64,000 nt of DNA from Eledone cirrhosa. Lineage: Eukaryota. Every line of letters begins with the position of its first letter. Positions within the stretch are counted from its first letter, which is position 1. Where the stretch lies: assembly GCA_964016885.1 (NCBI GenBank), contig OZ024749.1, positions 46,004,001 to 46,068,000 of the forward strand, read 5' to 3'. Under the pieces are notes generated by a model. The model was not told where the DNA came from. It did no database searches and was given only the letters and a program-made list of their open reading frames with translations. The position numbers and the translations under genes were made by a program. This document shows, piece by piece, positions 49,497-51,002 of the stretch.

Positions 49497-49685
49497 ATAA
49501 TATAAGATCAAAAGATGGTTAAAGGAGTTCAATATATTTTATTATGCGCATTTCAAAAACAAACATCATCAAACAATAATATTTGTGTTTTCATCAGATA
49601 AAACAGGAGAACATGATATGAAGGCTAAAAAAAACACTTGTTGATAGTGCAGTTTTAAATCAACCATCTTTTGATCTTATATTAT
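49497..49685. repeat. 24-bp perfect inverted repeat (49497-49520 / 49662-49685) flanking a hammerhead
   Basis: ATAATATAAGATCAAAAGATGGTT and AACCATCTTTTGATCTTATATTAT. Confidence 0.9.
49535..49605 (-). ncRNA. Type I hammerhead ribozyme (best-conserved copy)
   Basis: Minus strand: TGTTTTAT-CTGATGA-AAACACAAATATTATT(GTTT)GATGATGTTTGTTTTT-GAAA-TGCGCA-TA-ATAAAATA. 8-bp stem I, 16-position stem II with one mismatch, palindromic stem III TGCGCA, AUA triplet. Confidence 0.85.
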
Positions 49686-51002
49686 GCATACTCCAGTCCC
49701 ACAAACTGTAGAGTGCTTCTTATCCGATATCTGCATTGCTTTATTGTACTACAATAAAACTCACCTCCTACATATATATATATATATATATATATATATA
49801 TATATATAAATATATATATATATATATATATATATATATATATATATATATATATATATATATATTTATATATATATATATATATATATATATATATATA
49901 TATATATATATATATATATATATATATATATATATATATATATATATATATATATATATATATATATATATATATATATATATATATATATATATATATA
50001 TATATATATATATAGGTATATACATGTATGTATCCACATATATTTAAATATATGTTTGTATTTATAACTATACTTGTTCCAGCTATCTATATATCAGTCT
50101 ATCTATCTCTCTATACATATATCTACGCAGCTATGCCTCTCTCTATATATTTATCTATCTATGCATATATCTATCCATACATTCCACCAATATCGTGTAT
50201 TATAATCAAGCATCTATTTAACAGAAAAATAATATTTATATGTTTAAAAGAAACACACATACTCGAGTATAAATATATATATATATATATTTCATATATA
50301 TATATATATATATTTATATATACATATATATATATATATATATATATATATATATATATATATATATATATATATATATATATGTATATATATATATACA
50401 TATATATATATATATATATATATATATATATATATATATATATATATATATATATATATATATATATATTTATCCATTATTATGTTTGCATTATTAATAC
50501 CTGCAGGCAAACACGCTGTGTAACACATAATCAGAAATATTTCTAGCATGTGGGTGTGTAGCATTCATTATTGCTGCCTCATGCATCAACACTAACTTTA
50601 AAAAAAAAATAAAATTCATGAAATTACGAACGAATCTATCCTGATAGATTTTTTTTAAAAACCCAATCAGCAATTGAAACAATCGATAATTGAAAATACA
50701 AAAGAACAAGGATTGTTTTAAGAATTAGTGACAGACGCCTCACATGATAGAAAAAATATATATCTCTTGCGTATACGTAAATTATAGGTATTTTTGCCTT
50801 AATGTGTTTATGCTTAGCATTCATTGCTCTAATGTGTGGTGCTAGGAGTTCTGTACGTTATGAAAAAAATCAAATTCTTAAATTGCCAGCAGTAATTTCA
50901 ATAAGAGTTGGAATTGTTTACCACACGACAAGCTAAATTGGAAAACAATATAAACACCCACAGTTGTATTTATATTTATTAATATTTAAGAATATTTATG
51001 TG

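What the first reader, a model, noticed from the sequence alone, without database searches (positions are those of the whole stretch)
49497..49770. Intact hammerhead clamped inside a 24-bp perfect inverted repeat, as an island between two (TA)n tracts
Seen: a ~270-bp island between (TA)n runs. The minus strand carries a complete hammerhead (49535-49605, palindromic TGCGCA, AUA triplet). The island's last 24 nt before the (TA)n are the exact reverse complement of an internal segment upstream of the ribozyme. An AATAAA overlaps the cleavage site and stem I. The first stem II pair is A-U rather than the usual G-C. Inference: the transcript would fold back, presenting the ribozyme in a loop and pairing its 3' end internally, a plausible self-priming or 3'-end definition structure for a PLE-type element.
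Basis: partly seen in the sequence, partly recalled or inferred. Interest (0 to 1): 0.75.

Follow-up and report, generated by a model that had tools for sequence, protein, structure and literature searches.

The report
Head-to-head stub of a Penelope retrotransposon
This 270-base island is a tiny, truncated insertion of a known kind of animal jumping gene (a Penelope-like retrotransposon) that is very abundant in this genome, and its 24-base 'clamp' is just the overlap between two end-pieces joined head to head, likely made by two DNA copies of one uncut RNA rather than evolved as a working structure.

Summary
The hammerhead motif, the 24-bp inverted repeat and the (TA)n flanks are real. The island is the end of an autonomous Hydra-type Penelope-like element (809-aa RT + GIY-YIG ORF, L110). 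The hammerhead core occurs 22,841 times in the genome. The island is two pieces of the parent's terminal 259 nt (U), joined head to head at a 3-nt microhomology: U5-172 (short end) and U149-259 (long end, with the 87-nt tail). The clamp is their overlap. Only 21 sites share this junction, against 14,644 U-start anchors, and they are polyphyletic (AU p 2.65e-53), so the clamp is a recurrent accident and not a conserved device.

More useful: 35 of 100 copies start at one point (TTTC|ATATG), where G is the commonest non-native preceding base (2,337 G, 1,812 T, 704 A). Only 3 of 100 start near the ribozyme cut. Ends split 50 short to 47 long. This fits two internally started cDNAs on one capped, uncut RNA (inferred; no RNA data). 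The scan reported this anatomy before, on other DNA of this genome. New family member, known kind.

The parts
49377..49504 (.). (TA)n target microsatellite, left flank
   Evidence: by eye 29 of 30 best copies have (TA)n at or within a few bases of both ends, and L026 has (TG)n at one end
49497..49664 (-). Piece 1: parent 3' UTR/pLTR end, about U5-U172, ending at the element's SHORT end; starts 4 nt inside the U1 hot spot
   Evidence: 99.4% to L122 and 94.6% to ORF-bearing L110 over 168 nt
49536..49604 (-). Type I hammerhead motif: stem I GUUUUAU/AUAAAAU, core CUGAUGA...GAAA, long stem II with A-U first pair, palindromic UGCGCA at stem III, AUA triplet; predicted cut 49543/49542
   Evidence: core 24-mer 22,841 times in G000, reversed control 0; activity untested
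49538..49543 (-). AATAAA overlapping the cut site and stem I; no sign of use as a poly(A) signal
   Evidence: sister family has TAATGA at this position; no poly(A) at copy ends
49497..49520 (-). Arm 1 of the 24-bp inverted repeat = last 24 nt of piece 1
49662..49664 (.). 3-nt microhomology (GTT on minus) at which the two pieces are joined head to head
   Evidence: overlap of the two BLAST pieces; junction at 21 sites
49662..49772 (+). Piece 2: U149-U259, opposite orientation, ending at the LONG end. Its first 24 nt (49662-49685) are arm 2; the rest is the ~87-nt PLE tail
   Evidence: 100% to L122 and 99.1% to L110 over 111 nt; in tandem copies the tail runs on into the ORF leader
49690..49718 (+). 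Hairpin motif RCTCC...GAGYGCT 7-8 nt past the short end; a second copy lies 7-8 nt past the long end in parent elements; predicted marker of the RT start sites
   Evidence: both families; role inferred
49772..50473 (.). (TA)n target microsatellite, right flank

Best explanation
The island is a miniature head-to-head insertion of an autonomous Hydra-type Penelope-like retrotransposon into a (TA)n run, and the 24-bp clamp is the overlap of its two end-pieces, likely produced when two cDNAs copied from one capped, uncut RNA were joined at a microhomology. SHOWN: the parent element with an intact ORF; the two pieces and their junction; two fixed outer ends (short, and long = short + tail) in nearly equal numbers; a sharp inner end at U1; recurrent independent origin of this junction; both arms of an insertion belong to the same subfamily. 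INFERRED: the transcript starts at U1 (TTTC|ATATG, initiator-like) and is capped. The GIY-YIG nuclease cuts (TA)n on both strands. RT starts inside the RNA at the two sites that bracket the tail, each 7-8 nt before a conserved hairpin. Each cDNA runs through the uncut hammerhead toward the cap, sometimes copying it as an extra G. The two cDNA ends then anneal by a few bases. Two complete cDNAs give the 427-bp palindromic form. Here the tail-side cDNA stopped, or was trimmed, 24 nt past the tail and joined at GTT. The copy is most likely an inert by-product, and the lone hammerhead is predicted to be nearly inactive as a monomer.
For: Parent: L110 ORF 809 aa, L116 ORF 798 aa, each with U at both ends. 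Island = two BLAST pieces overlapping by 3 nt, 99-100% to L122. Genome-wide counts: 22,841 cores, 14,644 anchors, 5,244 native, 747 perfect palindromes, 21 focal junctions. Unselected samples: 43 of 98 anchors start at U-5..U3, 41 of them beside an inverted arm of variable length. By hand, 23 of 28 such loci have one short and one long end, 5 have an interrupted arm, and none has two complete ends of one kind. Of 100 copies anchored 3' of the cut, 35 start at U-5..U6, 3 within 5 nt of the cut, and 3' ends are 50 short, 47 long, 3 tail+leader. Base before U1 (native C): G 2,337, T 1,812, A 704. An untemplated 5' G is the accepted sign of a copied cap in LINE-1 and SVA (PMC4859970, passages). 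Tree: 20 junction copies need 15 changes (shuffled mean 16.8), AU p 2.65e-53, and the window copy is identical over 145 columns to long native copies. 30 of 33 head-to-head pairs have no subfamily-diagnostic difference between arms, against 11.9% of random pairs. The sister family (46% protein identity) has the same two ends, hairpins and inversion and its own inner-end cluster at TTTTTC|ACTACC, about 12 of 30 by eye. Contigs from unassembled DNA runs show 7 further U1-to-tail joints. In vitro precedent: two internal RT starts bracket the tail, both strands are cut and extended, and uncut RNA is the main substrate (PMC11167929, parts 1-2 of 4 read).
Against: No RNA evidence was obtained, so the start site, cap and lack of cleavage rest on DNA ends. 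The G excess is partly confounded: by eye 3 of 13 sampled G cases are explained by microhomology to internal GATA words, and T is nearly as common. Same-subfamily arms are expected under fold-back copying too. Deletion of most of one arm from a full palindrome after insertion would give the same junction. One of 100 copies (L276) starts exactly at the cut, so some templates may be cleaved. The tree has few columns and 54 of 74 inner branches are unresolved. In 4 of 21 junction copies (L136, L145, L149, L150) the arm differs from the copy's own 3' end at a variable site. No listed contig bridged the focal junction (most pieces were not shown).
Confidence: 0.72

Rival explanations
1. Same element, but the island began as the full 427-bp palindromic insertion and later lost most of one arm by microhomology-mediated deletion between GGTT and TGTT (palindrome instability in the genome).
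For: The full form exists, with 747 perfect centres and U pieces 98% identical to the island's. Both deletion end points share GTT. Recurrent origin across subfamilies fits either timing. Long DNA palindromes are deletion-prone (established knowledge, recalled).
Against: Many short-armed copies keep an intact U1 with an extra G or other filler at the joint, which points to joining at insertion. The window copy is among the youngest, identical to long copies over 145 columns. Thousands of palindromic copies persist.
Confidence: 0.15
2. The inversion arises by self-priming (fold-back) on an antisense template, as proposed for PLEs in PMC3846280, with the palindromic CATATG as the turning point.
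For: Perfect palindromes centre on a self-complementary hexamer. Arms match in subfamily in 30 of 33 pairs. Literature hypothesis (PMC3846280, passages).
Against: It does not predict a one-short, one-long end rule (23 of 28), extra G at one or both inner ends (L186), or non-palindromic filler at many centres. The sister family's hot spot is not a palindrome. Rare alleles are mirrored in both arms once, against 15 in one arm only, but this mostly reflects later mutation.
Confidence: 0.08
3. One reading: the 24-bp clamp is a functional RNA structure that presents the ribozyme and defines or primes the 3' end of a small mobile element that spreads as a unit.
For: The clamp is stable in silico (z -4.0) and stem I has pair probability about 0.9 with it. 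The exact junction recurs 21 times, and the arm usually matches the copy's own 3'-end variant.
Against: 21 sites against 14,644 anchors. Polyphyletic, AU p 2.65e-53. Arm length is continuously variable. Stem I also forms without the clamp, 0.64-0.75 in U1-172 and about 0.85 in the L113 context. Stem III stays unformed with or without the clamp. The matching variants follow simply from both pieces being copied from one source.
Confidence: 0.03
4. Assembly or sequencing artefact of a hairpin between two (TA)n runs.
For: Long palindromes and TA tracts are hard to assemble (recalled). No listed contig bridged this exact junction.
Against: The same junction stands at 21 loci on 13 contigs in several diverged subfamilies. 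Analogous joints appear in independent DNA-run contigs.
Confidence: 0.02

Closest known systems
Hydra clade of C-terminal EN+ Penelope-like elements (Craig et al. 2021, PMC8557442; sections 10-11, passages and supplement hits read)
   Same: Single RT + C-terminal GIY-YIG ORF; RW-x, DKT, CxCX5C, CxxC and CxH motifs; canonical-core hammerhead on the sense strand near the 3' end; (TA)n insertion; motif-level match by eye to the Hydra-1_Obim protein printed.
   Different: RWK reads RWT or RWI here (RWR in the sister family). The element is about 4 kb (3.7-4.4 kb between hammerheads) rather than under 3 kb. Clear pLTRs. The hammerhead differs from that of Hydra-1_Obim, and the 13-nt core motif searched is absent from that supplement. 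Very high copy number.
Canonical PLE insertion anatomy: inverted 5'-truncated copy plus optional tail (PMC8557442 Fig. 2 legend; PMC3846280 passages; dual opposite-strand min-HHRs 100-700 bp apart, PMC4209133)
   Same: Head-to-head arms, tail on one end only, microhomology joint, partial tandems.
   Different: The tail is about 87 nt rather than 30-40 nt. The inner ends pile up at one nucleotide with an extra G. The island has no ORF sequence at all.
Poseidon PAc of Anolis, in vitro (Frangieh et al. 2024, PMC11167929; parts 1-2 of 4 read)
   Same: Two internal RT start sites bracket the tail; AT-rich target cut on both strands; hammerhead cleavage not needed, uncut RNA the main substrate.
   Different: Different clade. 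In PAc the hammerhead overlaps the ORF start and the tail lies inside the ORF; here both lie upstream of the ATG. Nothing here was assayed.
Non-LTR retrozymes (bioRxiv 10.64898/2026.07.22.740005, part 1 of 5 read; PMC7229834, listing only)
   Same: Short non-coding repeat with a type I hammerhead derived from a PLE pLTR.
   Different: Retrozymes are head-to-tail tandem units with at least two hammerheads. The island has one hammerhead, is head-to-head, and is not a self-propagating lineage.
Twin priming of LINE-1 5' inversions (as cited in PMC4859970, passages)
   Same: Two priming events on one RNA give an inverted 5' piece with small indels at the joint.
   Different: In LINE-1 the first primer uses the poly(A) tail and the second a variable site. 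Here both starts are fixed internal sites and there is no poly(A).

Membership tests
Hydra-clade PLE (parent element) | Single ORF with RT and C-terminal GIY-YIG-type endonuclease | tested here: met
   809-aa ORF with FIQFDI, MGASDS, YRDD and a C-terminal LIY...YFG...FKARLYNH (read by eye). Pfam and PDB sequence searches gave no significant hit, so the domain call rests on motifs and on the by-eye match to Hydra-1_Obim.
Hydra-clade PLE (parent element) | DKG modified to DKT | tested here: met
   HSDKTNN; definition
Hydra-clade PLE (parent element) | RWK motif | tested here: inconclusive
   RW is present but the third residue is T in L110 and R in the sister family
Hydra-clade PLE (parent element) | CxCX5C linker, CxxC and CxH around the EN end, no CCHH | tested here: met
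   CNCRIKNKC, CNLC, CLH (by eye)
Hydra-clade PLE (parent element) | (TA)n insertion and hammerhead present | tested here: met
Hydra-clade PLE (parent element) | Generally under 3 kb | tested here: not met
   3.7-4.4 kb between hammerheads. The paper says 'generally', so this is a typical trait and not a defining one.
Hydra-clade PLE (parent element) | Groups with Hydra in an RT phylogeny | not tested
   Reference proteins were not available as stored sequences; only a by-eye comparison with the text
Type I hammerhead of PLE kind | CUGANGA, GAAA, NUH core; stems I and II; palindromic stem III | tested here: met
   Between families stem I changes by wobble (GUUUUAU/AUAAAAU to AUUUUGU/AUGAAAU), stem II changes on both sides (AAA/UUU to AGG/CCU) and the palindrome changes as a palindrome (UGCGCA to UAUAUA).
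Type I hammerhead of PLE kind | G10.1-C11.1 first pair of stem II | tested here: not met
   A-U in 246, G-U in 20, other in 5 of 271 instances. G-C is described as highly conserved in PMC4209133. So this is a variant hammerhead motif.
Type I hammerhead of PLE kind | Self-cleavage | not testable with these tools
   Monomer stem III probability 0.0. Published PLE monomers showed no detectable cleavage and dimers low cleavage.
Non-LTR retrozyme | Head-to-tail tandem units, each with a hammerhead | tested here: not met
   The island is single and head-to-head. None of 98 sampled anchors had the complete tail directly upstream in the same orientation (read by eye). No genome-wide search for that joint was run.
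Non-autonomous element mobile as a unit (SINE-like) | Copies with the same internal junction share descent | tested here: not met
   15 changes for 20 copies; AU p 2.65e-53

The most novel reading that the evidence does not exclude
The thousands of miniature head-to-head copies are a fossil map of the PLE replication cycle. One capped transcript, starting at an initiator about 70 nt upstream of the hammerhead, is copied by two RT molecules from two hairpin-marked internal sites. Both read through the uncut ribozyme to the cap, copy the cap as G, and are joined end to end. This would replace antisense self-priming as the origin of PLE inverted repeats, and would leave ribozyme cleavage with a job only in making (possibly circular) templates for long insertions.
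Probability: 0.4. Interest if true: 0.55.

Novelty: new member of a known kind. Interest (0 to 1): 0.32.

Why it matters
The clamp itself does not matter: it is one rare junction among many. What matters is the family around it. How PLEs make their inverted, tailed insertions and what their hammerheads do are open questions; PMC8557442 and PMC11167929 both say so in the passages I read. This family gives single-nucleotide, genome-scale predictions (start site, cap G, two RT start sites, hairpin markers, read-through of the cut) and an intact ORF with which to test them. Four literature searches on PLE anatomy and one on cap-derived G listed no paper reporting a cap-G signature or a start-site pile-up in PLE inversions. 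I read only some of the listed papers, the library lacks most subscription journals, and Schostak et al. 2008 was seen only as cited in other papers. Earlier notes of this scan reach similar readings on other families in this genome.

Tried and rejected
Rfam: nothing at gathering score; 11 chance-level hits on the island, no hammerhead. The repeat finder was swamped by (TA)n. The first PLE found beside a copy (L038/L071 family) is a sister family and not the parent: only short matches to the island, 46% protein identity. Pfam found nothing for either ORF and the PDB sequence search nothing significant. Sequencing runs: no RNA holder listed; this is no evidence on expression. DNA contigs show a depth step near U1 and single loose ends at U1 in organisms B and C; the tool warns that depth is not copy number, so I do not use these as counts. 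No listed contig bridged the focal junction. The idea that the tail sequesters stem I was dropped: 0.02 in one variant but about 0.85 in a longer context of another. A pile-up of 5' ends at the ribozyme cut was looked for and not found (1 exact, 3 within 5 nt, of 100; about 2.3 expected if the 25 internal ends were uniform). A test of two different RNAs per insertion was negative: arms match in subfamily in 30 of 33 pairs. Rows dropped: 1 of 21 junction copies (L130) and 11 of 98 anchors lacked the 3' anchor and were left out of the tree. One search is biased toward the query's junction (40 of 519 candidates scored) and was not used for frequencies. Samples are the first hits along contig C1, overlap each other, and count both arms of a palindrome. 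The HHR tally pools all loci fetched and is not a random sample. The host organism was not established by any search; 'octopus' as a paper search term was my guess, and the scan's earlier notes use the same label. Supplements of the bioRxiv preprint could not be seen and may list related families.

Full report
OBSERVATION. The island runs from 49497 to 49772 between (TA)n runs. The inverted repeat is exactly 24 bp, 49497-49520 against 49662-49685; the longest in 1000 shuffles was 12 bp. The minus strand folds with the clamp closed, z -4.0. Rfam does not recognise the ribozyme. As a monomer its stem III does not form.

IT IS A REPEAT. A search of the own genome gave 57 matches from 40 scored of 519 candidates, 32 of them near full length. 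The 30 fetched share both boundaries, and by eye 29 have (TA)n at or near both ends. The internal arm already varied among them: longer in L003, shorter or absent in L004, L007, L015 and L018. The same search showed a 427-bp form, an 87-nt head plus a 340-bp palindrome with two outward-facing hammerheads. So the clamp is a stump of a longer inverted arm.

THE PARENT. A PLE fragment beside one copy led to a large sister family with a homologous hammerhead and two kinds of 3' end, but it is not the parent. An exact 24-mer of the island's core occurs 22,841 times, and the reversed control 0 times. Among 20 stretches fetched around such hits, L110 and L116 carry intact ORFs of 809 and 798 aa, flanked by the island's sequence. 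I call the terminal 259 nt U; numbering shifts by about 2 nt between variants. U is the last ~170 nt of the 3' UTR with the hammerhead, ending at a short end, plus an ~87-nt tail ending at a long end. In tandem copies the tail continues into the leader and ATG. The protein shows DKT, CxCX5C, CxxC and CxH, and RW-T for RWK, the marks of the Hydra clade (PMC8557442 section 11). By eye it matches the Hydra-1_Obim motifs. No phylogeny was run, and Pfam and PDB searches were blank.

THE ISLAND IS TWO PIECES. BLAST splits it into 49497-49664 (minus, about U5-172) and 49662-49772 (plus, U149-259), 99.4% and 100% identical to L122, overlapping by 3 nt. Arm 2 is simply the first 24 nt of the second piece. 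This is the textbook PLE layout of an inverted 5'-truncated copy with a tail on one end (PMC8557442; PMC3846280). Opposite-strand hammerhead pairs 100-700 bp apart were already noted in PMC4209133.

THE CLAMP IS NOT CONSERVED. Exact counts: 21 sites with this junction, 747 perfect palindrome centres, 5,244 anchors with native upstream sequence, 14,644 anchors in all. In a tree of 107 copies (145 columns, poorly resolved), the 20 usable junction copies need 15 changes against a shuffled mean of 16.8, and holding them together is rejected (AU p 2.65e-53). The window copy is identical to long native copies and to palindromes. The junction therefore arose many times, likely helped by the shared GTT. 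The arm matches the copy's own 3'-end variant in most cases; L136, L145, L149 and L150 differ. In DNA-run contigs, 7 other joints link U1 to different points of the tail, but no listed contig bridged this one.

WHAT THE ENDS SAY. Of the first 98 anchors on contig C1, 53 continue into native upstream sequence, 43 begin at U-5..U3 and 2 begin elsewhere. Of 100 copies anchored 3' of the cut, 40 extend upstream, 35 begin at U-5..U6, 22 begin at scattered places, and 3 begin within 5 nt of the cut, one exactly at it; 3' ends are 50 short, 47 long and 3 tail plus leader. Counting by hand, 23 of 28 miniature inversions have one short and one long end, and the other 5 are interrupted. The native base before U1 is C; genome-wide the alternatives are G 2,337, T 1,812 and A 704, in an AT-rich context. 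An untemplated G is read as a copied cap in LINE-1 and SVA (PMC4859970). Against over-reading: 3 of 13 sampled G cases fit microhomology, and no RNA could be examined. The sister family shows its own inner-end cluster at TTTTTC|ACTACC, about 12 of 30 by eye. Both outer ends in both families lie 7-8 nt before an RCTCC...GA(G/A)YGCT motif; the first copy folds as a small hairpin. I took the twin-hairpin lead from earlier scan notes and checked it here. Arms of one insertion share a subfamily in 30 of 33 pairs, against 11.9% of random pairs.

MECHANISM. Shown: the parent, the two pieces, fixed outer ends, the U1 pile-up and recurrent origin. Inferred: a capped transcript from U1, a two-strand cut in (TA)n, two internal RT starts, read-through of the uncut ribozyme, and annealing of the two cDNA ends. 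The Anolis PLE does the equivalent in vitro: both strands are cut and extended, two starts bracket the tail, and uncut RNA is the main substrate (PMC11167929). Single PLE hammerheads showed no detectable cleavage and dimers little, and the same paper proposed circular templates for tandem insertions (PMC4209133). Rivals are later deletion from a full palindrome (0.15), antisense self-priming (0.08), a functional clamp (0.03) and an artefact (0.02).

COMPARISON AND VERDICT. It works like, and on motif tests belongs to, the Hydra clade of PLEs, with a longer body and a longer tail than published examples; the clade was not confirmed by a tree. The hammerhead is a variant, with A-U in place of G-C in 246 of 271 instances across two families. 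It is not a retrozyme and not a unit-mobile SINE. The scan reported the same anatomy on other DNA of this genome. One note also placed inner ends at the ribozyme cut, which I do not find as a pile-up in this family. Papers seen: PMC8557442 (passages, sections 10-11, supplement hits), PMC11167929 (parts 1-2 of 4), PMC4209133 (parts 1-2 of 4), PMC3846280 and PMC4859970 (passages), bioRxiv 10.64898/2026.07.22.740005 (part 1 of 5), PMC7229834 (listing only). Verdict: real, explained, new member of a known kind; interest 0.32, carried by the testable end map and not by the clamp.

Noticed in passing
window 61327-61400 (+): Hammerhead motif of a third related family (CTGATGA ... GAAA TATGTA TA ATAAAATA), ending about 60 nt later at a (TA)n run; probably another PLE short end.
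   Followed up: partly
window about 61630-61960: Another inverted repeat whose arms face each other around a minimal hammerhead-like core at 61791-61824 (-); it looks like a head-to-head stub of a further family.
   Followed up: no
window 8990-9030 (-), 41177-41219 (+), 42109-42167 (+), 17495-17530 (+): Further CTGANGA...GAAA cores; 13 pattern matches in the window against 2.4 expected from shuffles.
   Followed up: no
L071:417-5818 (G000:C4): Sister Hydra-type family with an intact 742-aa ORF, a textbook inverted-plus-tandem layout, and 72,615 first-look candidates for its endonuclease part.
   Followed up: partly
L276 (G000:C1:9898954): One copy whose 5' end falls exactly at the predicted ribozyme cut, joined to an inverted tail piece; possibly copied from a cleaved RNA.
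   Followed up: no
L113:1548-2107: The 3' UTR of this copy carries a 111-bp unit in about five tandem copies; other copies carry a ~215-bp duplication just upstream of U.
   Followed up: no
L110, L112, L116, L123, L125: Long insertions show the same head-to-head layout with arms of 0.9-1.9 kb; long-end copies with a whole ORF upstream need a template that runs past the 3' tail, which fits read-through into (TA)n or a circular RNA.
   Followed up: no
runs X4, X5 laid on L113:4500-5400: Two other organisms (coded B and C) hold this family with the same short and long ends next to (TA)n or other simple repeats, and single contigs breaking off at U1.
   Followed up: partly
window 58889-58938: 50-bp match (82%) to the sister family's 3' UTR.
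   Followed up: no
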